This document shows, piece after piece, positions 1 to 12,335 of a DNA stretch of 32,000 nt. The position numbers were made by a program, and so were the translations under genes. Origin of the DNA: Nostoc punctiforme PCC 73102 (GTDB taxonomy: Bacteria; Cyanobacteriota; Cyanobacteriia; Cyanobacteriales; Nostocaceae); contig NC_010628.1 in the NCBI RefSeq assembly GCF_000020025.1, forward strand, positions 4,230,001 through 4,262,000. Reading direction: 5' to 3'. The notes under the pieces are model-generated. The model was not told where the DNA came from, did not search any database, and saw nothing but the letters and a program-made list of their open reading frames with translations. The number at the start of each line of letters is the position of its first letter. Position 1 is the stretch's first letter.

Positions 1-16
1 ATGATAATCAAATAGT

Positions 17-51
17 GGGGGAGGAGGCAAGCTTCTCTTGCCTTCTCCCCC
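17..51. other. Hairpin with a 15-bp stem and 5-nt loop, nested in a 9-bp outer inverted repeat (1-9 / 65-73)
   Basis: GGGGGAGGAGGCAAG (17-31) and CTTGCCTTCTCCCCC (37-51) are reverse complements with one G:U-type mismatch. ATGATAATC (1-9) pairs with GATTATCAT (65-73). The structure lies at the window edge, so its context is unknown. Confidence 0.5.
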
Positions 52-463
52 TCTCCCCATACACGATTATCATTCTTATTAAGACTATTTTGAGTATTTT
101 AGCTGATTGACAAAAGGCGCTTTATTCTAACCTCTTACGGATGGGCCCAGACTAGTTTTTGCGTAATGCTTCAAGAGAGTACAAAATTAATAACCTAAGT
201 TGCTAGCGATCGCAAAGTACTTTTTTTAAGTACAAAACTTAATTCTTAGTATCTAAACACTACTTAAAAAATAGCTTTTGATACAAAATTAATACTGTTT
301 ATAGGTACTAACTAGCAACTTATGTTAATAGTGTTTGAGGCAGTATAAGACTTATATTTGATTTTTGAGAAACTAAGCTGCCTAGAAGCTTGACACATCA
401 AGCTTTCCTTGTGAGTATAATGAGGAAAATGTAAGATTCCTACGTTAGTGGCTAACTAACAAC

Positions 464-703
464 TTAGTCAAGTCCCAAAGTTGCTAGTGTTATTGTTTTT
501 ATTGTCAAGATAGCTGTTGTTTCTGTTGTTGGTATAGCTGTTGTTGTTGTAGCCGTTACTGTTGTTACTGTTATTATTGTTGAATTGAGTCCACCCTGAA
601 TGCTGAGAGCATCACTTTCAGACAATTGGTCCAAATAGCTTTCGGAATCATCAAATAATTCACTGCCAGTAACGGATAGATTATCAATTTTTATTGTACT
701 CAT
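464..703 (-). CDS. Double-glycine-leader RiPP/bacteriocin precursor (family A) with a Thr-rich, Cys-free core
   Basis: 79 aa. The 38-aa leader MSTIKIDNLSVTGSELFDDSESYLDQLSESDALSIQGG fits the LSxxELxxIxGG pattern. It is paralogous to the leaders of ORFs 1435-1626 and 1800-2021. The 41-aa core has 17 Thr, 1 Ser and 0 Cys. AAGGAGA lies 8 nt upstream of the ATG. Confidence 0.75.
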   Translation of the reverse strand: MSTIKIDNLSVTGSELFDDSESYLDQLSESDALSIQGGLNSTIITVTTVTATTTTAIPTTETTAILTIKTITLATLGLD

Positions 704-1115
704 TGCTTTATCTCCTTTGAAGAATTATTCAGGTTGCATAGGTATTAATTGCTGTATTTACCAATACTTACCTGAAAATATCTATATCTTAAAAGTTAAG
801 ATTAGCAAATTCAATTTACAAAATTACTTTTTGATGACATAATTATTTCATTATTAGCTTAATTTTAAATATAAAAAAAGTTTTTAGACAAATTGAAGAG
901 TTTGCTTTTAATATAAGACATTAACAAGGCTCATCTCTATTATTATGGGTAAAATAATCTAGGAGAAATCCAATTATAAAATTATAGTATATTAAAAAGA
1001 GACAAAACTAATTCATTTATGCGATCGCAAATTTTAAATCTGAGCAAAAACTAGAAAAAAATCAGCCCAAAATCCCTCTTGGACTGAACGATAAAAATTT
1101 AGATTTTGACTTTGT

Positions 1116-1304
1116 TCAAAGTAGTTCACTGTTTGAATTCGCTTCTTTCTGCTCAATATGTTGGCTCTGTTGTTGGCGACCTAGATATGAATCTTTATCG
1201 TTCTTACCTACAATGTATCCAAAGGCTGCACTTCCAATAGCTAGGAACAACAGTAGAACAATGCCTTCGTAACCATTGGGTTGATAAACAGGAGGCTGAC
1301 TCAT
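1116..1304 (-). CDS. Small single-pass membrane protein with a core-peptide-like segment (candidate immunity or leaderless paralogue)
   Basis: 62 aa with a hydrophobic stretch GIVLLLFLAIGSAAFGYIV. LAIGSAAFGYIVGKNDK matches the C-terminus LGLASAALGYAVGRNDR of the adjacent precursor at 10 of 17 positions. It has no double-glycine leader. Confidence 0.5.
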   Translation of the reverse strand: MSQPPVYQPNGYEGIVLLLFLAIGSAAFGYIVGKNDKDSYLGRQQQSQHIEQKEANSNSELL

Positions 1305-1434
1305 AAATTAATTTCCCGTTAATACAACTAAAAATTTACCTTAAATGCAGAGTGAAGGACATGAGTATTAAGACTAAGCCCTTCACTAAATGAACTGAAA
1401 ATTTTTGAATGATCTACAGAGGGATTATAGCTTA

Positions 1435-1626
1435 CTAGCGATCGTTACGACCCACTGCATATCCTAGTGCAGCAGAAGCTAAACCAAGGCTGATAAGTGC
1501 AAAAATGGTGAAACCACCATGAGATGATCCTGCTTGTTCATCAGATAGCTCGTTGAGAAAGCTTTCCTGATCTATAAAAAGAGATGAACCGGCTGGTTTA
1601 ATGTCGCTAATACAAATGGTTGCCAT
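1435..1626 (-). CDS. Double-glycine-leader RiPP/bacteriocin precursor (family A), hydrophobic 25-aa core
   Basis: 63 aa. The leader is MATICISDIKPAGSSLFIDQESFLNELSDEQAGSSHGG and the core is FTIFALISLGLASAALGYAVGRNDR. AAGGAAA lies upstream of the ATG. Confidence 0.75.
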   Translation of the reverse strand: MATICISDIKPAGSSLFIDQESFLNELSDEQAGSSHGGFTIFALISLGLASAALGYAVGRNDR

Positions 1627-1677
1627 GATTGAATTTCCTTTTATTTCAATTAAGCGAAAAGTGGTTTTTGCTGATTG

Positions 1678-1715
1678 CTAAACCTACATATATATAGGAA
1701 ATAATGTAGGTTTAG
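1678..1715 (-). other. Perfect 12-bp stem hairpin between two precursor genes (possible attenuator or processing site)
   Basis: CTAAACCTACAT (1678-1689) and ATGTAGGTTTAG (1704-1715) are exact reverse complements with a 14-nt loop. No clear U-tract follows on the minus strand. Confidence 0.4.
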
Positions 1716-1799
1716 AATAGTCTTGCTAAATCAATCAGACTTTTTAAACTACATACAAATGCTTCTTAACCTGTTCAAAATATTTAGAACAAGCAGAGT

Positions 1800-2021
1800 T
1801 TAGTAGTAGCGACCTTTAATGTAGGAAGCAACAAAAGTAACACCAACAACAGTAAGACCAATGCTTAAACAAGCTCCACTACTAGCTGTAGTGATAACTG
1901 TCCAAATAGCACCACCTTGATTACCTAATTCATCTTCAGTTAAAGACATCAGATAGCTTTCTTGATCGGCAAACAAATCGTAACCGGCTGGGCGTAAATC
2001 GGAAATTTTGATAGTAGCCAT
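1800..2021 (-). CDS. Double-glycine-leader RiPP/bacteriocin precursor (family A), 36-aa Ser/Thr-containing core with one Cys
   Basis: 73 aa. The leader is MATIKISDLRPAGYDLFADQESYLMSLTEDELGNQGG and the core is AIWTVITTASSGACLSIGLTVVGVTFVASYIKGRYY. AAGGAAAG lies upstream of the ATG. Confidence 0.75.
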   Translation of the reverse strand: MATIKISDLRPAGYDLFADQESYLMSLTEDELGNQGGAIWTVITTASSGACLSIGLTVVGVTFVASYIKGRYY

Positions 2022-2301
2022 CAGATGCTTTCCTTTGATTATCTAATTAATTATGCTTAGTAATAATCAGATATTTTCCTGATTTATTACATATTTATTG
2101 TATTTTTTAAATAGCTATAACTCAATACAAAAAACTAATTTAGCTTGACACAATAAAAACATTAATGTCCCATATATAAAATATATTTAGTTGGTATAAA
2201 TTTTTTGTCTTGCTATTTTTAAACCAATAAAATATCTGCCTTTTAAGACAAGAGGCAGATATTGATAAACAATAACAAATTAAACGTAAAATTTAACGAA
2301 A

Positions 2302-3057
2302 TCAAGCATCAGGAGTAGAAGCCGTTCTCTCTTCTAGCCAATTTATGAAGAGAAATTCTAAAATCTGCTCTCTGATTTCACTCAAGTCAGATGGAAACCA
2401 CTTCTCAACTCTAAGGATGTGATAACCAAGTTGAGTTTGAATTGGGCCTACTAATTCACCTACATCAATATCAGCAATAGCATTTGTAATCTCCGGTAAC
2501 AATTCTGTTAAAAACCGAATACCAACAAAAGCACCATTTTCTTTAGACTGCTTACCCTGAGAGTATTCTAAAGCTAATGCACAAAAAGAATCTTTTTTGT
2601 CCCGAAGCGCTTTAGTGATTTTCATTGCTTCTGTCAAATCACGAACAAGGATCTGAGACAAAGCCACCCGCTTATAACTATCCCGGTTATTTATATAATG
2701 ATCGTCCACCGCCACACCGAAAAGATGTTCTTTCAACTTTTGAGATAGCAATGATATGCGAATGATTTCCGACCAATCCTCTACACTAATGCGCTGATGT
2801 GCTAGCCATGCCAGAGTTTCAGATGTTCCCAGCAATTTGTTTTCTTGGCGAAATGTATCGCCTGCTGCTTGTAACTCTTCGTCTGTCACTTTAATATCTA
2901 GCTGTTCGCATAGTTTCAAAGTCAGAATATTTCTTTCAGCAGCAACAGCAATTTCAGCTATTTTGCAAGAATGGCGCAGGTAAGCAAGGATATCTTCATC
3001 ACGTGCAGGTGTAATTTCTGGAAATGTAAGTTTTTCTAAAGAGTGTTGCATGGTCAT
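2302..3057 (-). CDS. Parvulin-type peptidyl-prolyl cis-trans isomerase (PpiC/SurA-like) with an N-terminal helical domain
   Basis: 251 aa. The C-terminal GAFVGIRFLTELLPEITNAIADIDVGELVGPIQTQLGYHILRVEKW resembles the rotamase consensus (G..G.f......pe...a.f.l..Ge..gPv.t..GyHii.v). Confidence 0.7.
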   Translation of the reverse strand: MTMQHSLEKLTFPEITPARDEDILAYLRHSCKIAEIAVAAERNILTLKLCEQLDIKVTDEELQAAGDTFRQENKLLGTSETLAWLAHQRISVEDWSEIIRISLLSQKLKEHLFGVAVDDHYINNRDSYKRVALSQILVRDLTEAMKITKALRDKKDSFCALALEYSQGKQSKENGAFVGIRFLTELLPEITNAIADIDVGELVGPIQTQLGYHILRVEKWFPSDLSEIREQILEFLFINWLEERTASTPDA

Positions 3058-3151
3058 AGTATGTAATTCTGATCAAAATACATAATTTGTATCTTGTTGT
3101 GCAGTTATAGCCAGAAAATATTAACTATTAACTGCCTTGTATTTTTTTGAT

Positions 3152-4168
3152 TTAGGAGCGATAAATCAAGTTTTCTGGCAAAATATTTTTGATAGAAAGT
3201 TGATTGCGGTGTAAATCTCCATACAAATTCAGGTAATTAATTTCGGCAGGCGTAAGTTTGCCTTGCTTGACACTAGAAATGGCTGCATCAATTTCTTCCC
3301 GACGTTGCCATCCAGCCAAGCAAACATCTACACAGTTCTGGCTTAAAGAGTAGCGATATAAATCAGGTACTGAAGGCTGCCAACAATTTTCTGGCAGACC
3401 TTGGGGAGGGTTCCAAAGAGCGCCTGTATGAGAGCCTGTAGATTTAAAAGTAACGATACCTGGTCTATGAGAGTCTTGGGAGTCTAGTTGATTAAACAGT
3501 TGCGATTGAGCAGACTTATGAGCAACATTGTGTCTAACCATTACTACATCTAATAAAGGGCTGTTAGACCATTGTTGAGCCAGATTCATATCATGAAAAG
3601 ATGCTCCGACATAGCGAACAGCTCCCATTTTCTTAAGGCGTTCTGAAATTCCAACTATTTTTTCAATACTACGCTGATATACAGAATTAGCTCCTTTTAA
3701 ATCAGGAGACAGCTGTAAACAATCTTGTAAAGCTGACCCATCCTTAGAACCGATCCAGCCCCAGAAAAACACATCAATATAGTCAATACCTAATTCTACA
3801 AACTGATCGAGCAGTGCTGCGATCGCCATGTCTGGACTTTTAATGTAAGTTACTGTCGCTAGCACTACTTTCTCTCGCACCAAGGAACCACGTCCACACA
3901 TCTGGCGCAGTGCTCCAGCCATTGAGCTATAGATATAATGGTGCAGGTCACTGGAGTAAAAAAAGTAGTTAATTCCTTGGTCAAAGGCGTAAAGCGTATC
4001 CTCACTGGAAATGCTTCCACCACCTCCTAAGCCAAGACAGCTAACTGTTAAGTCAGTTCGCCCTAATTTTCGGTAGAAAGGTAAATCTGATTTTGGGAAT
4101 TTAGCATTTAGAGAATCAACTCCATCTGATTTGATTAAGGATTGTGGCGTAAGATTAGTTATTAGCAT
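3152..4168 (-). CDS. Aldo/keto-reductase-like oxidoreductase
   Basis: 338 aa. The N-terminal YRKLGRTDLTVSCLGLGGG is like the AKR start motif. Later IDYIDVFFWGW and VRYVGASFH resemble AKR TIM-barrel strands. Its ATG overlaps the stop of the upstream HopA1-like gene by 7 nt (ATGCTAA). Confidence 0.6.
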   Translation of the reverse strand: MLITNLTPQSLIKSDGVDSLNAKFPKSDLPFYRKLGRTDLTVSCLGLGGGGSISSEDTLYAFDQGINYFFYSSDLHHYIYSSMAGALRQMCGRGSLVREKVVLATVTYIKSPDMAIAALLDQFVELGIDYIDVFFWGWIGSKDGSALQDCLQLSPDLKGANSVYQRSIEKIVGISERLKKMGAVRYVGASFHDMNLAQQWSNSPLLDVVMVRHNVAHKSAQSQLFNQLDSQDSHRPGIVTFKSTGSHTGALWNPPQGLPENCWQPSVPDLYRYSLSQNCVDVCLAGWQRREEIDAAISSVKQGKLTPAEINYLNLYGDLHRNQLSIKNILPENLIYRS

Positions 4169-5280
4169 TCGTTCAATAACTGATAAATATTTTCCGAGTT
4201 AGCATTCAAGTAGACAGATTGCAAATCAATTCCCGCTAGAGAAAATTGCTCATGGATAGCCTGCATCCGTCCCTCTGGGGAGTCATCTCCTTGATACCAA
4301 GCTTTTAGTAATCCATTCGCCACAATCTGACAACGATTCATCCCAAAACTTTCCTGTTCAGCAAACTTTTTGTCTGGTTCTTCTGCTAACCCTAATCCTG
4401 GTAGAAGCTGCATCGTGAATAAAGGAACCTCTGGCTGAAAATAAGATTTATTTTCTCTATATACAACTTGTAAAACTTCTTTAACTACCTGATAATCCCT
4501 CTTATCAAAATACAAAACCCCTGAATCATGCCGTCCATAATCTTTTGGATTATACAAAACCTTAAAACTAAAAGGAATTGCTAACTTATTCAGTTGCTGT
4601 GTCAGACTCCTCATTACTGTCACAGCACCTTCAGGAGTCAAATTAAAATAGATTCGCACAGTTACTAATGGGTCGTTAGCATCCAGTAAACGAGTAAATC
4701 CTTGATTACCAACTGCCATATAAAAGCCATTTTGTACCCGATTTTTAGGCATCCGAATAGCTACCATATCACCTACTTTAGCGTCTTGGTCAATAGCTTG
4801 AAGATGCTTTTCAGGATGAATATGTAACCTCAAACCACCCTTTGTTACTACTAAACTACCGTCTATTTCTTCTTTAATAACAGACCAACCAAGGTCAAAA
4901 TTGCTGTCTCCACAATTACTTTCATGTAATTGCTCATACAATTCCAAATCTATTCCTAGAAAAGTATTATTTTCCAAATCTATGAGCAAACTATTTTCTT
5001 CTCCATCTAGTGCTAAAGCACTTCGCATAGAACCGTTGTAATATATCCCATAGAGAAAAGCCCGCAATTGCAGACTCAGATATTTCTGTTGCATCTGGGG
5101 TGGCATATTCTGAAAACGTTCAACTATCTCAGATGATAATTCCAAAGGTTTGTAATCTGGATGGTGGATGGAAAAATCAGATTTTATCTCAATTTTTTGA
5201 GCAATATCTTGTAAAACATCCAGTAATTGCCCAGTTAATCCAACCTCTAATTGAGTTTGGGAAGAATTTAATAATTGCAT
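4162..5280 (-). CDS. HopA1-effector-family-like protein (candidate phospho-Ser/Thr lyase partner of the adjacent kinase)
   Basis: 372 aa. Motifs I recall from HopA1-family proteins are present: VRIYFNL, FKVLYNPKDYGRHDSGVLYF, GLAEEP....ESFGMNRC. It is immediately downstream (28-nt gap) of an APH-like kinase, as in known kinase/HopA1-like dehydratase pairs. The assignment is from memory and needs an HMM check. Confidence 0.55.
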   Translation of the reverse strand: MQLLNSSQTQLEVGLTGQLLDVLQDIAQKIEIKSDFSIHHPDYKPLELSSEIVERFQNMPPQMQQKYLSLQLRAFLYGIYYNGSMRSALALDGEENSLLIDLENNTFLGIDLELYEQLHESNCGDSNFDLGWSVIKEEIDGSLVVTKGGLRLHIHPEKHLQAIDQDAKVGDMVAIRMPKNRVQNGFYMAVGNQGFTRLLDANDPLVTVRIYFNLTPEGAVTVMRSLTQQLNKLAIPFSFKVLYNPKDYGRHDSGVLYFDKRDYQVVKEVLQVVYRENKSYFQPEVPLFTMQLLPGLGLAEEPDKKFAEQESFGMNRCQIVANGLLKAWYQGDDSPEGRMQAIHEQFSLAGIDLQSVYLNANSENIYQLLNEC

Positions 5281-5308
5281 AATTTTTATTTAGTAATCAC
5301 AAAATGAT

Positions 5309-6469
5309 TTAAACAGGAGAATTATTTAGATGGCCTAATTCAACAGCAGCAGCACCAAAAATTGTTGGCATCGATTGTACAGGACGGCTTAATAACGTCT
5401 TAGCAACCTGAAGCATAGCAATCCCCATATTGCCAAAAGATTTTTGATATTGAATCATCGCCTGAATTTGTTGAATCAACGTAAAACCCGTAAATTGCAC
5501 TACCCGTTGCAAGAAATCAGAGCGGTGGTCTAGAATTTCTGGAAAAGTCTTCAAATAAGCTTGGGTTAATGTACTAATTGAAGGCTGAAGTACTTCTAAA
5601 GGTGTAATTGCCAAACGTAGAGACTCTTCAATACTCAAAGAATTACTAATAACCAAGCTACCCAACCAGATTTGGACATAGCTGCTAATTAGTGTTCCTA
5701 AATCAAAAGCTGGATCTCCCCAAGCAGAGCGTTCCCAATCTATTAGCCGGACAATATTGTTACTAGAATCTTGCCAATCTTTGTGCAGGAGAATATTATT
5801 TAGTTTTAAATCATTATGGGTGAGACAAGAGGGTGTTACAGCATTGCCCAATTCGGCGATCGCTTGCCCCAAGCTATCATAACGTTGATAGAGAGCAAAA
5901 AACTTTAACCCATCGCTAGGAACTATACCAAAAATTTCCGGTTCAACCCGTTCTAATCTGCGAACTAAATGTAATACTTGATCGCCCATTAAATTATCTG
6001 AATTTTTAGTAAAGAATTCCTGATATTCTTGGCGGTTGAAAGTATCACGATGGATAGTCCCTAAAATATTACCAATTGCCGTAGCGATTTCTATATTAAA
6101 GCTATTTCCCTTGGTATAAAAATCCATTAAATCCCGATAATCATCGAAATATTTAAAGACAATAATGGAATTTTCGACATCAAAATGCAGTACTTCTGGT
6201 AAAAATGAACGGTAGTTGCTAAGGTTTGGAAATTGTTGTAAAAACTCTTGAATTCGCCACTCAATTAAAAATTCACCAGCCGCTTTCCCTTCGGGATTGT
6301 GTCGTTCTTGTTTAACTAAAAGTTTGCGATCGCCTGGTAAAGTCACTAATAAGTTGAAATTCTTGGCTGTAAGTTGTTCTATTTTAGCGGGAGGTTGCTC
6401 GGATTGATTACATAATCCTTTTTCAAGCAAATAATTGAAAACATTCTGTGAATTTAAGATAAATGTCAT
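5309..6469 (-). CDS. Aminoglycoside-phosphotransferase (APH)/MtnK-like kinase-fold protein
   Basis: 386 aa. It has the catalytic-loop-like LTHNDLKLNNILL (HxDxxxxN) and the metal-binding IDWERSAWGDPAFDLG (DWE...GDP..DL) characteristic of the APH/choline-kinase fold. Confidence 0.8.
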   Translation of the reverse strand: MTFILNSQNVFNYLLEKGLCNQSEQPPAKIEQLTAKNFNLLVTLPGDRKLLVKQERHNPEGKAAGEFLIEWRIQEFLQQFPNLSNYRSFLPEVLHFDVENSIIVFKYFDDYRDLMDFYTKGNSFNIEIATAIGNILGTIHRDTFNRQEYQEFFTKNSDNLMGDQVLHLVRRLERVEPEIFGIVPSDGLKFFALYQRYDSLGQAIAELGNAVTPSCLTHNDLKLNNILLHKDWQDSSNNIVRLIDWERSAWGDPAFDLGTLISSYVQIWLGSLVISNSLSIEESLRLAITPLEVLQPSISTLTQAYLKTFPEILDHRSDFLQRVVQFTGFTLIQQIQAMIQYQKSFGNMGIAMLQVAKTLLSRPVQSMPTIFGAAAVELGHLNNSPV

Positions 6470-6482
6470 AGGTCTTAATCAA

Positions 6483-6683
6483 TTAGTTGTAACTTTTGAA
6501 GATACCAGCTTCCTTCTCAATGCGATCTAAAGCCTTCTTTGCTCTAAAAATCAGCCGCAAATAGTTTAACTGACTATTCCAAGCTGAACGAGGTAACAGG
6601 GTTAGTAAAGGCTCTACCTCATTCTGGGATTGTTCAATATGAGTAATATTCGGATCTTCTGGAGGGATAAATTTACTTGACAT
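6483..6683 (-). CDS. Hypothetical 66-aa protein translationally coupled to the rSAM gene
   Basis: Its ATG lies 1 nt after the rSAM stop (TAA T ATG), and its stop is 13 nt before the kinase ATG. I recognise no motif. Confidence 0.45.
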   Translation of the reverse strand: MSSKFIPPEDPNITHIEQSQNEVEPLLTLLPRSAWNSQLNYLRLIFRAKKALDRIEKEAGIFKSYN

Positions 6684-6684
6684 A

Positions 6685-7974
6685 TTATTTATCTGAATGA
6701 GATTTAGAACTAACTAAGGATGAAACTAATGGTTCTTCTTTCCAACCTTCTGGCCATTGAATGCGATCGCTAGTAAAATGAAGTGGATCGTTTTCAGGCC
6801 AAGCGGTATTAATCGGTTCCTCAATCAGAGCAAACTCGCCATTATCAAAGGGATTTCCATCTGCACGACGTTGAAGAAATACTCGCTCTCGAATACCGCC
6901 TTTTTCCTGAGTGAGGGCGCGATGATGGCAGTAAGGATTGTTACCTCGTTTATCAAAGAAAACGTGAGCAGTCCAACTGCAACCACCTCGACAGAGTTCC
7001 GCAAATTCGCAAGACTTGCAGAAACCCCATAAATGTGATGTTCCTTTGGGAGTATCAGCTTCGAGATTGAACCGTAGTTCTTCAGTTTCTTCAATAATTG
7101 TCCGCAGTGAATGGTCACGGATGTTACCACCAGTGTAGGCTGTGGTCGGTAGTGAGGGACAACCTTTGATAGCACCATCGGCTTCAATACCTAAAGCAGA
7201 CAGTCCAGCGCTACATCCCTGCCAAAATGACCAAGCATCTCCACCCCGTAGCAGTCGTTCATAGGGCCCGTAGTAGCCGATGTTATTCCCAGGCTGTATC
7301 TGCACCCCTTCTTCCTTGGCGCGTTCAGCAACACGAGCAATCATTGGGTATATATCCAATAGTTCGTAAGGTTGCAGCAGAATATCACCATTATCAGCAG
7401 CATTGCCCATCGGTACAGTTAACTGAATTTGCCAAGCGAATACTCCAGCGTCGCGGATACGCTCATAAATTTGGGGAAATTCTGGTGCAGACAGACGATT
7501 GATTTGCGTATTGCAGCCGAAAGGGATACCTGCTTCCTTAAGATTGCTCATGGTCTTAAACGCCCATTGCCACGAGCCTTGTTTGCCCCGCAGACGGTCA
7601 TGAGTTGCTTCTAAGCCATCAACCGACACAGAAACCACGCCAATACCAGCTTCTTTCATCCGGCGGGCTGTGTCTAAGGTGATACCATAACCCCCAGTAG
7701 TCATACCACACAACATCCCAGCTTTAGTAATTGCTTGGGCAATCTCTAACCAGTCAGGACGCAGAAATGCTTCACCACCAATTATGGTTACTTCTGTGAT
7801 TCCAACTTCCGCCATTTGTTTGACTAAATCAAGGGCTTCTGCTGTGGAAAGTTCGTTAGCCCTTGTATGACCCGCACGAGAACCGCAGTGTTGACAGGCT
7901 AGATTACACTTGAGTGTAATTTCCCAAACTGCATAACTAATTCGGCGATAAGTCATAAAAATACCCTCAATCAA
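6685..7974 (-). CDS. Radical SAM enzyme with a full SPASM domain (Nif11-class peptide maturase-like)
   Basis: 429 aa. It has the CNLACQHC (CxxxCxxC) cluster at residues 23-30 and the SPASM signature CSAGLSALGIEADGAIKGC ... CKSCEFAELCRGGC (Cx2Cx5Cx3C). An alternative start at 7956 (MTYRR) has a GAGGG Shine-Dalgarno-like motif. Confidence 0.9.
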   Translation of the reverse strand: MIEGIFMTYRRISYAVWEITLKCNLACQHCGSRAGHTRANELSTAEALDLVKQMAEVGITEVTIIGGEAFLRPDWLEIAQAITKAGMLCGMTTGGYGITLDTARRMKEAGIGVVSVSVDGLEATHDRLRGKQGSWQWAFKTMSNLKEAGIPFGCNTQINRLSAPEFPQIYERIRDAGVFAWQIQLTVPMGNAADNGDILLQPYELLDIYPMIARVAERAKEEGVQIQPGNNIGYYGPYERLLRGGDAWSFWQGCSAGLSALGIEADGAIKGCPSLPTTAYTGGNIRDHSLRTIIEETEELRFNLEADTPKGTSHLWGFCKSCEFAELCRGGCSWTAHVFFDKRGNNPYCHHRALTQEKGGIRERVFLQRRADGNPFDNGEFALIEEPINTAWPENDPLHFTSDRIQWPEGWKEEPLVSSLVSSKSHSDK

Positions 7975-8005
7975 TTAATTTTTCTACAAAGGGACGGATA
8001 AATCC

Positions 8006-8131
8006 CTATCTATCCCTAGTTTTAACTATTTGGTTACATTGTTCTTTGCTATTAACGCTTTCAATTTGATGACGAAACGCTTCATCATTTGCTAGATTTT
8101 CGTAGAAAGCTTTGACATTTTTTATGGGCAT
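8006..8131 (-). pseudogene. Truncated Nif11-type leader paralogue (41 codons, no core peptide)
   Basis: My own translation is MPIKNVKAFYENLANDEAFRHQIESVNSKEQCNQIVKTRDR*. This aligns with residues 1-37 of ORF 8288-8620 (MSLEHVKAFYQKLANDEAFSNQIQGVNSKEECSQIVK). It then runs directly into a copy of that gene's 3' hairpin region. AGGAGA lies upstream of the ATG. Confidence 0.6.
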
Positions 8132-8225
8132 AAGATTCTCCTAACCTTGATTAATTAAATATATTTTTTACTTTTATGCATGATTTTTTTATCTGTCATT
8201 TCGATTCTCTTGTGAATTTATAAAA

Positions 8226-8249
8226 GGACGGACAAGTCCCTATCCGTCC
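8226..8249 (-). terminator. Candidate intrinsic terminator/attenuator after the Nif11 precursor gene
   Basis: The minus strand reads GGACGG-ATAGGGACTTGT-CCGTCC followed by TTTTATAAATT. A diverged copy (7989-8016) follows the truncated leader, just upstream of the rSAM gene. Confidence 0.55.
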
Positions 8250-8287
8250 CCAGAATTTTAAACTGTTATGGTCGCAATCCAGGTTCC

Positions 8288-8620
8288 CTAAAGTGTGTCA
8301 TCTACCCGGATAACTCCATACATAAGTTGGTAGGGTGGCCATACAACTCCATATAATGGTTGGATTCTTGGTTTCCCAGTTAATCCACCAAAAACTGCTG
8401 CTAGTTCTTTTTCACTTAAATCTTTGAGTTCACCTTCACCATCGGCAGATTCTAACAATTGAGCGGTATATTCTTCATACTCTTCTAGAGTGAAATCGTA
8501 GCCGGCAGCTTTAACTATTTGGCTACATTCTTCCTTACTATTAACGCCTTGAATTTGATTACTAAACGCTTCATCATTTGCCAGCTTTTGATAAAAAGCT
8601 TTGACGTGTTCTAGAGACAT
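8288..8620 (-). CDS. Nif11-like-leader RiPP precursor with double-glycine cleavage motif
   Basis: 110 aa. The N-terminus MSLEHVKAFYQKLANDEAFSNQIQGVNSKEECSQIVKAAGYDFTLEEYEEY fits the Nif11 leader family. LSEKELAAVFGG is a textbook LSxxELxxIxGG. The core is LTGKPRIQPLYGVVWPPYQLMYGVIRVDDTL. AAGGAG lies upstream. Confidence 0.85.
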   Translation of the reverse strand: MSLEHVKAFYQKLANDEAFSNQIQGVNSKEECSQIVKAAGYDFTLEEYEEYTAQLLESADGEGELKDLSEKELAAVFGGLTGKPRIQPLYGVVWPPYQLMYGVIRVDDTL

Positions 8621-8676
8621 AATTTTCTGCTCCTTGAATTACTTAACAGTTGGTAATTATATTAGAATATTGAACC

Positions 8677-9114
8677 TTAGCCGGCAGCGAGGTTTGACAC
8701 TTCAATGGTTACTTCAGACGGATTGTAGTTATCTGTAATTACTTGCGGACAACGCATACAAGCTGCTTTGCCTTCTTGGTTCCACCACCGACAATCTCGG
8801 CGGATAGAACAAGGAGGCAATTCCTCTGCAACTACGGTTAATTTTCCGGCAATTTGCTTCGCTAGACGACAATCTTCTCCATCAAAATGCAGACAAGCTT
8901 TAGTGGCACAAGGTGCTGCTGTGCGAAAAATTTCAGCAGGTGTAACTGGACTAGCTTTTGCTATCAGTTCATCGGTGATAGGTATGGGTTGCTTGAGATA
9001 AGTTACACGTGGTTCTGCAACTGTTCCACTGATTATGCCGAAAACAACACTATTTTCAGATTCTGGCCTAGCACTGGGGCAAAGTGTAGTTTTATCCACA
9101 ACAATGTCTTCCAT
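8677..9114 (-). CDS. Cys-rich hypothetical protein (145 aa) between two precursor genes
   Basis: It has nine Cys, including APCATKACLHFDGEDCRLA and PPCSIRRDCRWWNQEGKAACMRCP. There is no signal peptide and I recognise no family. Confidence 0.55.
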   Translation of the reverse strand: MEDIVVDKTTLCPSARPESENSVVFGIISGTVAEPRVTYLKQPIPITDELIAKASPVTPAEIFRTAAPCATKACLHFDGEDCRLAKQIAGKLTVVAEELPPCSIRRDCRWWNQEGKAACMRCPQVITDNYNPSEVTIEVSNLAAG

Positions 9115-9258
9115 TAATTGAGCCTCCAGCAGAGAAAGCCTTTATAAATACGAGCTTTCAGTCGAATTGGGATATACCATTCTTAAATCATTCGTGAAAA
9201 ATTATATCCCCGACTTTTTTACGAAATGAGGGATTTTGATACCACAAATTTTCACAAA

Positions 9259-9504
9259 TCAGATAGAATTGTCAACTGCTACGAGTCCTATAGTAATAGG
9301 AGGAATAAAAATCTTACCAAGTATTATGGGAACCAATTTTGATTCTCCACCTGAAACGCTTTTTGCTTCCTCATCAGACATAGATAACAAAGCTTCTTCT
9401 GAATCCAAAACTTCGTTTCGACGTGTGACGGCATTTTTCACAGCATCATCAATCAAATCGTTAACTTCAATTTGACTGTGATACTTTCTTTCTTTAGCTT
9501 CCAT
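9259..9504 (-). CDS. Double-glycine-leader precursor (family C), hydrophobic Pro/Ile-rich core
   Basis: 81 aa. The leader ends LSMSDEEAKSVSGG and the core is ESKLVPIILGKIFIPPITIGLVAVDNSI. GAGGGAAA lies upstream. I prefer this minus-strand reading to the antisense ORF 9236-9475 because of the GG-leader architecture. Confidence 0.6.
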   Translation of the reverse strand: MEAKERKYHSQIEVNDLIDDAVKNAVTRRNEVLDSEEALLSMSDEEAKSVSGGESKLVPIILGKIFIPPITIGLVAVDNSI

Positions 9505-9899
9505 GTTGATTTCCCTCTGATTTTTTAACTATTTTTAGGCAATTGCAATTATTATATTTATCAGTGTAATTGCCTAGGATTTACTCATATTAGTAAATAA
9601 TAAAGCTAATTACTTGATTTTTTACAACTTTAAATTAGACAGAAATAAAACTTTTATGTCACTAAAAAACGATAATCTTTGCTTTGAGTTATCCATCTTT
9701 TTATATATGGGCATATACAAAAGTGTTGAATGTTAAGAAAAATCCGATAAAAATAGCCCAAAATATGACAGGTGAATTCTAGCTCCCGTGTTGAATTTGA
9801 GAGAGCCGCCGCCAACACAGAAACCATGTATCGATCATTTATAGCTGTTCTGCGTGACTTTTGGCGAATACTGCGACGAAAAGATGTTTCTCGTTCTAA

Positions 9900-10811
9900 G
9901 AGGTTGTTTGAAAAGTTCCCAGTTGATTAAAAAAAGCTCTCAGGGCATAAGCTGTAGATACGTATATACAGCACCATTGAGAGCGATGAGTAAAGCATAC
10001 TCTAGTAACCTGACCCAAAGTCAATTCGAGTTAATTGAACCGCTGATCCCTGTGGCTAAATCTGGTGGTCGTCCACGAGAAGTAGAAATCTGGGCAGTGC
10101 TAAACGCCATTTTTTATGTACTGGTTCAAGGCTGCAAGTGGCGAGACCTACCTGAGAATTTCCCGGCATGGCAGACGGTGTATACATATTTCCGTAATTG
10201 GCGTATTGATGGGACGTGGATAGAAATCCATGATCGTCTACGGGCATGGACAAGAGCGGATCATGAGCGATTGCCAAGTCCCTCTGAAGCCATAGTGGAC
10301 AGCCAAAGCGTTGAAACAGCAACTATGATTCATCAAGCCGTCGGCTACGACGCTGCCAAGAAGATCAAGGGACGCAAACGGCATATGACTGTCGATACAT
10401 TGGGTTTGGTGTTGCGCGTACTGGTGACTGCTGCTAATGTACCTGAGCGAGAAGGCGGCAAACAAGTCTTACTAAAAGTTCAACAGATGGGGAGTATGGT
10501 ATCTCGGCTGAACACGGTTTGGGTTGATGGCGGTAGGAACAGCGAGCCATTTATGCGTTGGCTCATGGATTTTTGTCGTTGGATTGTGCAAGTGGTGTTG
10601 CGACCTCAACACCACAAGAAATTTGTTTTGCTTACGAAACGCCCTTGTGGTTGAGCGTACTTTCGGTTGGCTCAACTGGTACCGCCGACTTAGCAAAGAA
10701 TATGAGCAATTACCCGAAACAACTGAGACTTTCATTTACCTTGCTATGATTCGGCTTATGCTCAGACGACTTGCATAATTTTTTACTGGCTTTCACTTTT
10801 CAAACAACCTC
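9900..10811 (+). mobile_element. IS5-family insertion sequence (912 bp) with 17-bp perfect terminal IRs and a TAA target duplication
   Basis: GAGGTTGTTTGAAAAGT (9900-9916) is the exact reverse complement of 10795-10811. TAA flanks both ends (9897-9899 and 10812-10814). Confidence 0.85.
9986..10778 (+). pseudogene. IS5-family DDE transposase, frameshifted near 10640
   Basis: MSKAYSSNLTQSQFELIEPLIP...GRPREV...KWRDLP...AIVDSQSVET...KGRKRHMTVDTLG is typical of IS5 transposases. The C-terminal [22 protein letters not shown] continues in another frame (ORF 10524-10778), consistent with a 1-nt indel in the cgccc run. Confidence 0.8.
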
Positions 10812-11744: not shown

Positions 11745-12335
11745 TTGGTAAAAATGCTGGTACGTCGTAAGAATGAGGATTACAGGTCACGGGAATATCT
11801 TACAGTACGTGAGGTAAATAGCATTCTACGAGGGGCAAAAGTTTACGGGCGGTACAAGGTGAGGAACTATGCCTTGGTACTGTTAATATTTCGCCACGGG
11901 CTGCGGGTGTCGGAGGCTTGCGATTTGCGATGGGATGCGATTTCATTTCTGGATGAGGAGATTTTTATCACGCGCAAAAAAGGGAGTGATAGCGGGGTTC
12001 ATCCGTTGCCTGTGGATGAAATCGAGGCATTGAAACAATTAAAGGAATTAAATATTGGTGGCAATTACGTTTTTATTGGGGAAAGGGGGGAGAGGTTAAC
12101 CCCGGCTGCGGTACAAAGATTGTTGACCAGGTTGGGGGAAGTCGCAGAATTAAACATTAAAATCCACCCGCACCAGTTACGCCATGCTTGCGGTTACTAC
12201 CTTGTGAATGAGGGGCATAGTACTAGATTTATTCAGGAATTTTTAGGACATAGAGATATACGCCACACCGAAAAATATACCAAAGTAAATTCCAAACGTT
12301 TTTCTGGTATCAAGTGGAACACAATTGATGAGTAA
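11745..12335 (+). CDS. Small tyrosine recombinase (FimB/FimE-size, phage-integrase family)
   Basis: 196 aa. It has GLRVSEACDLRW (the Arg I region) and HPHQLRHACGYYLVNEGHSTRFIQEFLGHRDIRHTEKYT (the HxxR ... H ... Y catalytic box), closely resembling the FimB/FimE C-terminus. An ATG alternative start lies at 11754. Confidence 0.85.
   Translation: MVKMLVRRKNEDYRSREYLTVREVNSILRGAKVYGRYKVRNYALVLLIFRHGLRVSEACDLRWDAISFLDEEIFITRKKGSDSGVHPLPVDEIEALKQLKELNIGGNYVFIGERGERLTPAAVQRLLTRLGEVAELNIKIHPHQLRHACGYYLVNEGHSTRFIQEFLGHRDIRHTEKYTKVNSKRFSGIKWNTIDE

What the first reader, a model, noticed from the sequence alone, without database searches (positions are those of the whole stretch)
464..703. Precursor core with 17 Thr in 41 residues and no Cys
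After the GG site the core reads LNSTIITVTTVTATTTTAIPTTETTAILTIKTITLATLGLD. That is 17 Thr and 1 Ser, alternating with Ile/Val/Ala/Leu, with no Cys. The DNA is a low-complexity GTTGTTGTT-type tract on the plus strand. If the adjacent kinase/HopA1-like pair acts on it, up to 18 dehydrations are possible with no thiol available for ring closure. If unmodified, the alternating T-x-T pattern resembles beta-rich Thr-ladder surfaces. Either way it differs from the other two family A cores, which look like hydrophobic class II bacteriocin-type peptides.
Basis: partly seen in the sequence, partly recalled or inferred. Interest (0 to 1): 0.7.

Follow-up and report, generated by a model that had tools for sequence, protein, structure and literature searches.

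The report
Threonine-rich peptide precursor in Nostoc
This is a real small gene in Nostoc punctiforme for a secreted-peptide precursor whose business end is 41% threonine; it belongs to a widespread cyanobacterial peptide family, already catalogued but chemically uncharacterised, whose partner enzymes probably turn those threonines into reactive dehydro-residues.

Summary
ORF 464..703 (-) encodes 79 aa: a 38-aa double-glycine leader and a 41-aa core with 17 Thr, 1 Ser and no Cys.

It is a genuine gene. It has a conserved ribosome-binding site and a conserved upstream block of about 170 nt. Its leader is under purifying selection.

The window is Nostoc punctiforme PCC 73102. This exact peptide is already listed, without comment, in the supplement of Eyles et al. 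2021 among cyanobacterial precursors next to HopA1/kinase pairs ("Family 1A"; "type-B" in Liang et al. 2022). No product of this branch was found in the literature searched.

The core is not a one-off. Its leader defines a subfamily (IDNLSVTGSE[FL]FSDSESYLDQL..DALSI[KQ]GG) found in many Nostocales:
- Cores are 22-27% Thr, rich in Ile, Val and Pro, and mostly Cys-free.
- Thr is usually the first core residue.
- Other members reach 53% Thr.
- In several genomes these genes sit directly behind kinase-HopA1.

Both enzymes keep their catalytic residues. The most likely outcome is multiple Thr-to-dehydrobutyrine conversions without rings, then export. This is untested. The tract grew by ACA-codon and short tandem repeats.

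Verdict: new member of a known, orphan family; moderate interest.

The parts
464..703 (-). Precursor gene (79 aa): start codon 701-703, leader 590-703, core 467-589, stop 464-466
   Evidence: ORF listing and translation. Identical protein P0001 is annotated 'hypothetical protein [Nostoc punctiforme]'. It is listed as RiPPER peptide WP_012409787_4 in the supplement of PMC8153245. It scores 91 bits against the subfamily leader HMM.
467..589 (-). Thr-rich, Cys-free core (41 aa; 17 Thr, 15 of them ACA codons) built from nested tandem repeats
   Evidence: Codon table and composition. TRF repeats of 9, 15 and 24 nt at 493-582 correspond to TII/TVT/TVT, ATTTT/AIPTT and TTAIPTTE/TTAILTIK.
711..718 (-). 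Ribosome-binding site AAAGGAGA, 7 nt before the ATG
   Evidence: Read from the sequence. CAAAGGA is invariant in the 8-sequence upstream alignment A1.
704..880 (-). Conserved upstream block (5' UTR and probable promoter). A tentative TTGAAT-17-TAAGAT lies at 814->786.
   Evidence: blastn of window 590-879 finds the upstream regions of subfamily precursors in L030, L041, L019 and L020. Alignment A1 has 71% mean column identity. The tentative hexamers match only 8 of 12 positions and were not reported by the promoter scan, so the promoter is inferred.
1062..1087 (-). Terminator-like hairpin that closes the upstream operon, making the Thr-rich gene a separate transcription unit
   Evidence: 11-bp stem plus a T-run.
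5309..6469 (-). Peptide Ser/Thr kinase (APH fold, LxmK/LanK-like)
   Evidence: PF01636, E 1.5e-11. NCBIfam LxmK model scores 85 bits, below its cut-off of 315. H218-x-D220-x-K222-x-x-N225, D244, K53 and E70 are conserved in 75-78 of 78 orthologues.
4162..5280 (-). HopA1-type phospho-Ser/Thr lyase (LanY-like), WP_012409787
   Evidence: PF17914, E 5.6e-63. Match to the LxmY chain of PDB 9DK1, E 1.5e-7. R209, K240, R250 and Y257 have the spacing of CaoY R187/K219/R229/Y236 (PMC9486802) and are conserved in 80-81 of 81 sequences. It is paired with the kinase in 79 of 80 loci.
3152..4168 (-). Diverged AKR-like protein (weak aldo/keto-reductase match) that has lost the canonical AKR catalytic tetrad; an accessory gene present in only 15 of 80 related loci
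   Evidence: PF00248, 28.7 bits. Alignment to a canonical AKR in the same window. Invariant residues among orthologues. Distribution across loci.
2302..3057 (-). PpiC/parvulin-type prolyl isomerase within the operon (weak match to TIGR04500 'peptide maturation system protein')
1800..2021 (-). Sibling precursor (general Family 1A leader, hydrophobic core with 1 Cys)
   Evidence: Also listed in the supplement of PMC8153245.
1435..1626 (-). Sibling precursor (general Family 1A leader, hydrophobic Cys-free core)

Best explanation
The ORF is a genuine, separately transcribed precursor-peptide gene of the cyanobacterial HopA1/kinase RiPP (ribosomally made, enzymatically modified peptide) family. This family is 'Family 1A' in Eyles et al. 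2021 and 'type-B putative class V LanA' in Liang et al. 2022. The organism is Nostoc punctiforme PCC 73102.

The proposed mechanism has four steps:
1. The conserved leader (..LFxDSESYLDQL..) docks on the kinase-lyase complex.
2. The kinase phosphorylates Thr/Ser side chains of the core.
3. The HopA1-type lyase eliminates the phosphate, giving dehydrobutyrine/dehydroalanine. With 17 Thr, 1 Ser and no Cys, the result would be a linear, multiply dehydrated, very hydrophobic peptide without thioether rings.
4. A C39-peptidase ABC exporter removes the leader after GG. That exporter is encoded elsewhere in this genome, but lies next to the precursors in relatives.

The Thr-rich tract arose by in-frame expansion of ACA codons and short tandem duplications inside a hypervariable core cassette. 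Selection in this leader subfamily favours Thr/Ile/Val/Pro-rich, Cys-free cores.

Shown here:
- the gene is real, and it belongs to the family and to the subfamily;
- Thr-rich cores recur;
- precursors of this subtype are linked to the enzyme pair;
- the catalytic residues are intact;
- the tract has a repeat origin.

Inferred, not shown:
- that the enzymes act on this peptide at all;
- how many Thr are dehydrated;
- export and cleavage;
- the function of the product.
For: Gene reality:
- The ribosome-binding site and about 170 nt upstream are conserved across genera.
- Leader codons show 109 synonymous against 61 non-synonymous differences in 10 pairwise comparisons.

Family and subfamily:
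- An HMM search of 80 related loci found about 140 distinct family cores.
- 23 of the precursor hits in those loci score at least 75 bits on the subfamily leader model.
- 45 subfamily proteins were found in the protein database.
- Subfamily cores are 22-27% Thr, 14-15% Ile and 10-13% Pro, with about 1% Cys. 45 of 54 are Cys-free, and Thr is core residue +1 in 37 of 45.

Independent Thr-rich cores:
- L030 has three: 18/34, 15/29 and 9/29 Thr. L051 has 14/38, L013 12/27, L063 10/39 and L007 10/32.
- L051, L013, L063 and L070 use mixed Thr codons. Thr-richness is therefore selected at the protein level and is not only a microsatellite effect.
- Two L030 paralogues differ by an in-frame TTTIP indel.

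Link to the enzymes:
- Kinase and HopA1 are paired in 79 of 80 loci.
- In L030 the only modification genes next to three Thr-rich precursors are the kinase and HopA1, followed by SurA, HlyD and a C39-ABC exporter.
- The catalytic residues of both enzymes are conserved.
- Every one of 140 family cores has at least one Ser/Thr. Ser/Thr is enriched at the core N-terminus: 75/140 against 48.6+-5.6 in shuffles.

Precedent: homologous pairs fully dehydrate Ser/Thr-rich cores. CaoK/CaoY carries out 8 dehydrations (PMC9486802), and KinC/KinD acts on four N-terminal Thr (PMC10880069).
Against: - There is no experimental evidence for transcription, translation or modification of this gene. The Logan contigs that carry it could not be typed as RNA or DNA.
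- The gene lies behind a terminator, 3.5 kb from the enzymes, and no exporter is present in the 32-kb window.
- The exact core is strain-specific: the database cluster has a single member sequence. The gene is absent from the closest related locus, L001.
- Near-uniform ACA codon use (15 of 17) points to a very recent expansion, which could be neutral.
- Eyles et al. saw no conserved Ser/Thr/Cys in Family 1A cores.
- The kinase scores far below the NCBIfam LxmK cut-off (85 against 315 bits), so substrate chemistry may differ from class V enzymes.
- No product of the cyanobacterial branch has been reported.
Confidence: 0.55

Rival explanations
1. Minimal modification. The peptide is exported essentially as a beta-branched, hydrophobic, unmodified or singly modified double-glycine peptide. 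The kinase/HopA1 pair acts only on one N-proximal Ser/Thr (here S3/T4). The Thr/Ile/Val-rich body acts through its physical properties: beta-sheet self-assembly, membrane insertion, or matrix or amyloid formation like the EbfG double-glycine peptides of Synechococcus elongatus, or a class II bacteriocin-like activity.
For: - The only positionally conserved Ser/Thr in the family is at core positions 1-2: Thr at +1 in 37/45 subfamily members, and [ST]P within the first five residues in 44/140 cores against 6.9+-2.4 in shuffles.
- Many subfamily cores are mostly Ile/Val/Leu runs with few Thr, for example TWTIIIIIIIL and TGVIIIIIII.
- T+I+V = 61% gives a very high beta propensity.
- AlphaFold2 draws a hairpin, though at low confidence.
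- Small double-glycine secreted peptides support biofilm formation in a cyanobacterium (PMC4997328 abstract).
Against: - Characterised kinase/HopA1 pairs are processive and dehydrate most or all available Ser/Thr (PMC9486802, PMC10880069).
- Thr enrichment throughout the core, with mixed codons in several lineages, is hard to explain if only one Thr matters. Ile/Val would serve a purely structural role equally well.
- The AlphaFold2 model is uninformative (pLDDT 57, pTM 0.21).
Confidence: 0.25
2. Evolutionary by-product. The tract is a recent, nearly neutral ACA-microsatellite or tandem-repeat expansion in a redundant, relocated precursor cassette. The gene may be expressed, but the Thr-rich core has no specific selected function. 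It would be one transient draw from a hypervariable core library.
For: - 15 of 17 Thr codons are ACA and 29 of 41 core codons end in A.
- Nested tandem repeats are present.
- The same ACA monotony occurs in the related L030, L007 and L002 cores.
- The core is strain-specific and is missing from the nearest relative, L001.
- In other AKR-type clusters this precursor type sits just upstream of the kinase (L002, L029, L086). Here it lies at the far end behind a terminator, next to a region with a transposase and an integrase.
- One relative (L002) carries a frameshifted copy.
Against: - The reading frame, leader, ribosome-binding site and upstream block are all intact and conserved.
- Slippage of ACA repeats is not frame-neutral for indels that are not multiples of three, yet all expanded copies remain in the Thr frame rather than the Asn or Gln frames.
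- Thr-rich cores arose independently with other codons (L051, L013, L063, L070).
Confidence: 0.15
3. Not a gene: a chance open frame across a low-complexity TGT-rich tract.
For: Low-complexity DNA keeps several frames open. One reverse-strand frame across the core is also free of stop codons.
Against: - The 38-aa N-terminus scores 91 bits against the subfamily leader model and is 70-87% identical to leaders in other genera, with an excess of synonymous change.
- The ribosome-binding site is conserved.
- NCBI annotates the ORF, and a published RiPP-mining pipeline picked it up.
Confidence: 0.02

Closest known systems
Cyanobacterial HopA1/phosphotransferase-associated precursors: 'Family 1A' (Eyles et al. 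2021, PMC8153245), also 'type-B' putative class V LanA (Liang et al. 2022, PMC9486802)
   Same: This ORF is a member, and the exact sequence is in that paper's supplementary RiPPER table. It shares the conserved double-glycine leader, the hypervariable core, several non-identical precursors per cluster, and restriction to cyanobacteria.
   Different: Neither paper discusses this peptide or a Thr-rich subgroup. Eyles et al. state that the cores have no conserved Ser/Thr/Cys. Here a leader subfamily shows Thr at core +1 and 22-27% Thr overall. No product is known for the family.
Class V lanthipeptides (lexapeptide, cacaoidin, pristinin A3) and their LanK/LanY dehydratase (LxmK-LxmY structure, PDB 9DK1)
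   Same: It has the same two-protein dehydration machinery: an APH-fold kinase plus a HopA1-type lyase with the Arg/Lys/Arg/Tyr active site. The precursor is leader-dependent.
   Different: - The core has no Cys, so no lanthionine or aminovinyl-cysteine can form.
- No class V cyclase or decarboxylase was recognised nearby.
- The leader is a double-glycine type matched to a C39 exporter.
- The kinase scores well below the LxmK family cut-off.
- The branch is cyanobacterial rather than actinobacterial.
Kintamdin (KinC/KinD) and thioamitides (TvaC/TvaD, TsaC/TsaD)
   Same: A kinase/HopA1 pair converts clustered Thr/Ser into dehydro-residues. The kintamdin core starts with a Thr-rich stretch that becomes dehydrobutyrines (PMC10880069).
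   Different: Those products go on to thioether or aminovinyl macrocycles or to thioamides, using extra enzymes and Cys. Neither is available here.
Linaridins (cypemycin, legonaridin, salinipeptins)
   Same: The predicted product class is similar: linear, ribosomal, hydrophobic peptides with several Thr-derived dehydrobutyrines and few or no rings.
   Different: Linaridin dehydration uses unrelated LinH/LinL-type proteins, and none is present in the cluster. The leader and export logic also differ. The resemblance would be convergent and is untested.
Unmodified double-glycine secreted peptides of cyanobacteria (Wang et al. 2011 bacteriocin clusters with a long C39-ABC, HlyD and SurA; EbfG biofilm peptides of Synechococcus elongatus)
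   Same: They share the double-glycine leader. In relatives they also share the SurA/HlyD/C39-ABC export module with an N-terminal cyclic-nucleotide-binding domain. Both are small hydrophobic secreted peptides.
   Different: Here a conserved kinase/lyase pair accompanies the precursors in 79 of 80 loci, so modification is expected.

Membership tests
Family 1A / type-B cyanobacterial HopA1-associated precursors | Conserved N-terminal leader ending in a double-glycine motif | tested here: met
   Leader HMM hits. Subfamily HMM 91 bits. Alignment A2 has 15 invariant leader columns, including the GG.
Family 1A / type-B cyanobacterial HopA1-associated precursors | Encoded on the same strand near a HopA1-domain protein paired with a phosphotransferase | tested here: met
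   HopA1 at 4162..5280 and kinase at 5309..6469, both on the minus strand. The published RiPPER table gives the distance as 3458 nt, same strand.
Family 1A / type-B cyanobacterial HopA1-associated precursors | Restricted to cyanobacteria; hypervariable core; several precursors per cluster | tested here: met
   All 80 loci and all 45 protein hits that carry an organism name are cyanobacterial. The cores cannot be aligned. The window has three family precursors.
Class V lanthipeptide | LanK kinase plus LanY (HopA1) lyase with catalytic residues | tested here: met
   However, the NCBIfam LxmK equivalog score is 85, below the cut-off of 315, and the lyase matches no NCBIfam model.
Class V lanthipeptide | Cys in the core to form (methyl)lanthionine or aminovinyl-(methyl)cysteine | tested here: not met
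   0 Cys in the core. 45 of 54 subfamily cores are Cys-free.
Class V lanthipeptide | Dedicated class V cyclase and, where relevant, a LanD-type decarboxylase in the cluster | tested here: inconclusive
   No Pfam or NCBIfam match of that kind among the ten neighbouring proteins. No structure-based search was done. The diverged AKR-like protein is of unknown function.
Class V lanthipeptide | Thioether cross-links in the mature product | not testable with these tools
   Requires mass spectrometry or NMR of the product.
Linaridin | LinH/LinL (CypH/CypL)-type dehydration proteins | tested here: not met
   None among the cluster proteins scanned. Dehydration here would be by kinase/HopA1.
Linaridin | Linear product with several dehydrobutyrines | not testable with these tools
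   Predicted only. The core mass minus n x 18.011 Da is given.
Unmodified class II-type double-glycine bacteriocin | Double-glycine leader with an adjacent C39-peptidase ABC exporter and no modification enzymes | tested here: not met
   The leader is present, but there is no exporter in the 32-kb window. The kinase/lyase pair is conserved with the precursors. An exporter is present in the relative L030.
Aldo/keto reductase (for the neighbouring 338-aa protein, as a possible dehydro-residue reductase) | Catalytic tetrad Asp-Tyr-Lys-His | tested here: not met
   Aligned to a canonical AKR of the same window, the tetrad positions read Tyr71, His76, Val106 and Trp/Gly. Val106 is invariant among 15 orthologues.
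TxT 'Thr-ladder' beta-solenoid (insect antifreeze type) | Regularly spaced TxT motifs on successive coils of a confidently folded beta-solenoid | tested here: not met
   There are 7 overlapping TxT but no regular coil period in 41 residues. AlphaFold2 gives one weak hairpin, with pLDDT 57 and pTM 0.21.

The most novel reading that the evidence does not exclude
The cyanobacterial kinase/HopA1 systems may be dedicated makers of ring-free, poly-dehydrobutyrine linear peptides rather than lanthipeptide machines. That would be a route convergent with linaridins. New cores would be generated by in-frame ACA/tandem-repeat expansion. The frequent Thr at core +1 would give an N-terminal 2-oxobutyryl cap after leader removal.
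Probability: 0.3. Interest if true: 0.65.

Novelty: new member of a known kind. Interest (0 to 1): 0.45.

Why it matters
The HopA1/kinase clusters are among the most widespread orphan peptide gene clusters in filamentous cyanobacteria. Eyles et al. 2021 counted 183 clusters and 570 peptides. No product has been described.

This precursor is a very sensitive reporter substrate. It has 18 possible dehydration sites, no Cys to complicate the chemistry, and sits in a genetically tractable model strain. One co-expression experiment would show what the enzyme pair does in cyanobacteria, how processive it is, and whether Cys-free dehydropeptides are the real products.

The subfamily pattern found here gives concrete, testable rules for the family:
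- Thr at core +1;
- Thr/Ile/Val/Pro-rich, Cys-free cores;
- [ST]P enrichment at the core N-terminus.

If the enzymes do little, the finding is simply an odd low-complexity member of a secreted-peptide library.

Tried and rejected
- Literature searches (8 queries) for a characterised product of the cyanobacterial HopA1 clusters, or for an AKR link, found none. Recent N. punctiforme RiPP papers (nostolanthin, nostolysamides) concern LanM clusters, not this one.
- An Rfam scan of window 1-10000 gave no known RNA element.
- An AlphaFold2 model of the precursor with a 39-sequence alignment had pLDDT 57 and pTM 0.21. It is too poor to use, so no fold search was run.
- Transcription evidence was sought from public assemblies. 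The ORF occurs on 56 short Logan contigs (<10 kb) with variable upstream ends. I could not tell whether the runs are RNA or DNA, so no conclusion was drawn.
- The idea that the neighbouring 'aldo/keto reductase' reduces dehydrobutyrine to D-aminobutyrate was considered and set aside. The canonical tetrad is lost, the gene is absent from 65 of 80 related loci, and it is absent from loci that carry Thr-rich precursors, such as L030.
- The sigma-70 scan found nothing above shuffle expectation. The tentative promoter at 814->786 matches only 8 of 12 positions.
- Iterating the leader HMM drifted into other double-glycine families (Nif11 and the 'NNAVARRN' family), so the subfamily was defined with a separate, stricter model.
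Full report
**1. Observation**

ORF 464..703 on the minus strand encodes 79 residues:
- leader: MSTIKIDNLSVTGSELFDDSESYLDQLSESDALSIQGG
- core: LNSTIITVTTVTATTTTAIPTTETTAILTIKTITLATLGLD

The core has 17 Thr, 1 Ser and 0 Cys in 41 residues, and T+I+V = 61%. With a local Thr frequency of 5.8%, P(>=17/41) is about 3.5e-11.

The DNA is low-complexity. 15 of 17 Thr codons are ACA, and 29 of 41 core codons end in A. Tandem Repeats Finder reports nested repeats of 9, 15 and 24 nt at 493-582. In peptide terms these are TII/TVT/TVT, ATTTT/AIPTT and TTAIPTTE/TTAILTIK.

**2. Is it a gene?**

Yes, for these reasons:
- An AAAGGAGA ribosome-binding site lies 7 nt before the ATG (711-718).
- About 170 nt upstream are conserved with the upstream regions of homologous precursors in other strains and genera (blastn; alignment A1, with CAAAGGA invariant).
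- Leader codons compared with ten homologues show 109 synonymous against 61 non-synonymous codon differences. Against L050 the split is 12 to 2. This indicates purifying selection on the protein.
- A terminator-like hairpin at 1087->1062 follows the preceding gene, so the ORF is probably its own transcription unit. A tentative TTGAAT-17-TAAGAT promoter at 814->786 is inferred only: it matches 8 of 12 positions and falls below the scan threshold.
- No Rfam family matches the region.

**3. Where it comes from and what is already known**

An identical protein is annotated 'hypothetical protein [Nostoc punctiforme]' on an 8,234,322-bp contig.

The supplementary RiPPER table of Eyles et al. 2021 (PMC8153245) lists this exact sequence as peptide WP_012409787_4 of Nostoc punctiforme PCC 73102. 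It places it 3458 nt from the HopA1 protein WP_012409787, on the same strand. That paper defines 'Family 1A' as follows:
- 570 peptides in 183 clusters;
- found only in cyanobacteria;
- a conserved double-glycine leader;
- hypervariable cores 'without conserved Ser, Thr or Cys';
- products unknown.

Liang et al. 2022 (PMC9486802) call the cyanobacterial set 'type-B' putative class V precursors. Eight literature searches found no characterised product for this branch.

**4. Gene neighbourhood**

All of the following are on the minus strand, listed from upstream to downstream:

| Coordinates | Gene |
|---|---|
| 9259..9504 | Precursor of another double-glycine family |
| 8677..9114 | Cys-rich 145-aa ORF |
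| 8288..8620 | Nif11-type precursor |
| 6685..7974 | Its radical-SAM maturase (TIGR04103, 832 bits) |
| 6483..6683 | 66-aa ORF |
| 5309..6469 | APH-fold kinase |
| 4162..5280 | HopA1-domain protein (PF17914, E 5.6e-63) |
| 3152..4168 | AKR-like protein |
| 2302..3057 | PpiC-type isomerase |
| 1800..2021, 1435..1626 | Two Family 1A precursors |
| 1116..1304 | 62-aa membrane peptide, followed by the terminator |
| 464..703 | The Thr-rich precursor |

A transposase and an integrase lie just beyond the cluster. No C39 ABC exporter is present in the window.

**5. Comparative genomics**

The 80 loci kept are all cyanobacterial and mostly Nostocales.

- Kinase and HopA1 are paired in 79 of 80 loci. 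The AKR-like gene with its operonic PpiC occurs in only 15 of 80.
- Mining all small ORFs with leader HMMs found about 140 distinct family cores.
- The Thr-rich precursor's leader defines a sharp subfamily, M[AS]TIKIDNLSVTGSE[FL]FSDSESYLDQL(TEL)SESDALSI[KQ]GG. It has 23 precursor hits in the loci scoring at least 75 bits on the subfamily leader model and 45 in the protein database.

Subfamily cores compared with the rest of the family:

| Feature | Subfamily | Rest of family |
|---|---|---|
| Thr | 22-27% | 9.8% |
| Ile | 14-15% | not compared |
| Pro | 10-13% | not compared |
| Cys | about 1% | 3.6% |
| Cys-free cores | 45 of 54 | not compared |
| Thr at core +1 | 37 of 45 | not compared |

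The window core (41% Thr) ranks third. Other Thr-rich cores:

| Locus | Organism | Core | Thr |
|---|---|---|---|
| L030 | Nostoc sp. FACHB-280 | LIITTPTTTIPTTTIPTITTTPTTTRTPPTTWYC | 18/34 |
| L030 | Nostoc sp. FACHB-280 | second paralogue | 15/29 |
| L030 | Nostoc sp. FACHB-280 | third paralogue | 9/29 |
| L051 | Microseira wollei | TGNNPPTRPITTTWPTTWPTTTWTITIEESMMTTIVPD | 14/38 |
| L013 | - | - | 12/27 |
| L063 | - | - | 10/39 |
| L007 | - | - | 10/32 |

- The first two L030 paralogues differ by an in-frame five-residue TTTIP repeat, and all copies stay in the Thr frame rather than the Asn or Gln frames.
- L051, L013, L063 and L070 use mixed Thr codons, so Thr-richness is not just an ACA microsatellite.

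Against this, L002 carries a copy with a frameshift in the leader. The nearest related locus, L001 (HopA1 88% identical), has no such gene.

**6. Link to the enzymes**

- In L042, L043 and L050 the subfamily precursor begins 0.4-0.8 kb after the HopA1 gene. In L008, L012, L019, L027, L033, L041 and L051 it lies 1.5-2 kb downstream.
- L030 shows a minimal cluster: kinase, HopA1, three Thr-rich precursors, then SurA-like PPIase, HlyD and a cyclic-nucleotide-binding/C39-peptidase ABC exporter on the opposite strand. The AKR-like protein is therefore not needed for this precursor type.
- In AKR-type clusters the subfamily precursor usually sits just upstream of the kinase (L002, L029, L086). In N. 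punctiforme it has moved to the far end of the cluster with its own upstream block.

**7. Are the enzymes competent?**

The HopA1 protein matches the lyase chain of PDB 9DK1 (E 1.5e-7). That entry is the LxmK-LxmY class V dehydratase complex (PMC12141560).

Its R209, K240, R250 and Y257 reproduce the spacing of CaoY R187, K219, R229 and Y236. Mutagenesis showed R187 and K219 to be required for phosphate elimination, and R229Q made it inefficient (PMC9486802). R209, K240 and R250 are invariant in 81 sequences, and Y257 is conserved in 80 of 81.

The kinase has H218-N-D220-L-K222-L-N-N225, D244 (IDWE), K53 and E70, conserved in 75-78 of 78 orthologues. It matches the NCBIfam LxmK model only weakly: 85 bits against a cut-off of 315.

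**8. Mechanism**

Most likely, the leader docks on the kinase-lyase complex. Thr/Ser residues are phosphorylated and the phosphate is eliminated, giving dehydrobutyrine/dehydroalanine. With no Cys, the product stays linear. A C39 exporter encoded elsewhere removes the leader after GG.

Precedents support extensive dehydration: CaoK/CaoY performs 8 dehydrations, and KinC/KinD converts a Thr-rich N-terminus.

Family-wide statistics also point to Ser/Thr as the target:
- all 140 cores contain Ser or Thr;
- Ser/Thr occupy one of the first two core positions in 75/140, against 48.6+-5.6 in shuffles;
- [ST]P occurs within the first five residues in 44/140, against 6.9+-2.4.

The number of dehydrations, export and function are all inferred. 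Predicted masses are 4189.35 Da for the unmodified core and 3883.17 Da after 17 water losses.

**9. Rivals**

- (a) Only an N-proximal Ser/Thr is modified, and the beta-branched body acts physically, by self-assembly or as a bacteriocin-like peptide.
- (b) The tract is a recent, nearly neutral repeat expansion in a redundant, relocated cassette.
- (c) It is a chance ORF. This is effectively excluded by the leader conservation.

The 'Thr-ladder' idea has no support. AlphaFold2 gives pLDDT 57 and pTM 0.21 with one weak hairpin, and the TxT motifs have no regular period.

**10. Comparison and novelty**

The ORF works like a class V lanthipeptide, kintamdin or thioamitide substrate at the dehydration step. 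It fails the defining lanthipeptide feature, Cys for thioethers. Its predicted product resembles linaridins but would be made with unrelated enzymes.

It is a member of the known but chemically orphan Family 1A, and it is already in a public table. The new elements are:
- the recognition of a Thr/Ile/Val/Pro-rich, Cys-free leader subfamily with Thr at +1;
- the repeat-driven origin of the tract;
- the positional Ser/Thr enrichment;
- the finding that the AKR-like neighbour is not a canonical reductase.

Rating: new member of a known kind; interest 0.45.

Noticed in passing
window 1116..1304 (-): This is a leaderless 62-aa membrane-type peptide. Its residues 15-37 are 52% identical to the core of the neighbouring precursor 1435..1626 (IVLLLFLAIGSAAFGYIVGKNDK against IFALISLGLASAALGYAVGRNDR). 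It is conserved only in L001 and L011. It could be an immunity protein or a precursor that lost its leader.
   Followed up: partly
window 3152..4168 (-): The 'aldo/keto reductase' has lost the canonical Asp-Tyr-Lys-His tetrad (Tyr71, His76, Val106, Trp/Gly). It nevertheless has 145 invariant positions among 15 orthologues, including YFFYSSDLHH, WGW and RHNxAH. This suggests an AKR-derived protein with a different, unknown activity. It occurs in 15 of 80 loci, always with an operonic PpiC-like gene.
   Followed up: partly
window 9259..9504 (-) and 8677..9114 (-): This is a third double-glycine precursor family (leader ..NDLIDDAVxNAVxRRN..EEAKxVxGG, core rich in I/P/G). It sits next to a Cys-rich 145-aa ORF that has no Pfam match. 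The pair recurs in 40-43 of the 80 related loci, upstream of the Nif11/radical-SAM module.
   Followed up: no
family-wide (L001-L080 cores): [ST]P is strongly enriched at the very start of Family 1A cores (44/140 against about 7 expected), and a parvulin-type prolyl isomerase is always nearby. A kinase making phospho-Thr-Pro next to a parvulin recalls Pin1-type logic. This is untested speculation.
   Followed up: partly
window 9854..10654 (+), 11745..12335 (+), and further transposase-like ORFs at 17-26 kb: Mobile-element genes abut the cluster, and no C39-ABC/HlyD export module lies within the 32 kb. Relatives such as L030 carry SurA-HlyD-cNMP/C39-ABC next to the precursors. The N. punctiforme cluster looks rearranged.
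   Followed up: partly
L002 8448..8677: A subfamily precursor in Nostoc sp. 106C is split by a frameshift inside the leader. Its downstream frame still reads a Thr-rich core, YLTINYTTVLTTKTIVTTPYTIIGTGPIIQPTPPVFIA. This is either a pseudogene or a sequencing error.
   Followed up: no
L002, L007 and proteins P0002, P0003: The closest leader relatives (short leader without the TEL insert) share a C-terminal PTPPV[FYV][LI] motif after their Thr-rich part. The window core lacks it, so its C-terminal half is not orthologous to theirs.
   Followed up: no
L081-L085 (Logan contigs of SRR16631387, SRR21010787, SRR16479519, SRR12750588, SRR14090608): The ORF is found on 56 short public contigs (<10 kb) with variable upstream ends and a common downstream end. 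If some of these runs are RNA-seq, they would show transcription. This could not be determined here.
   Followed up: partly
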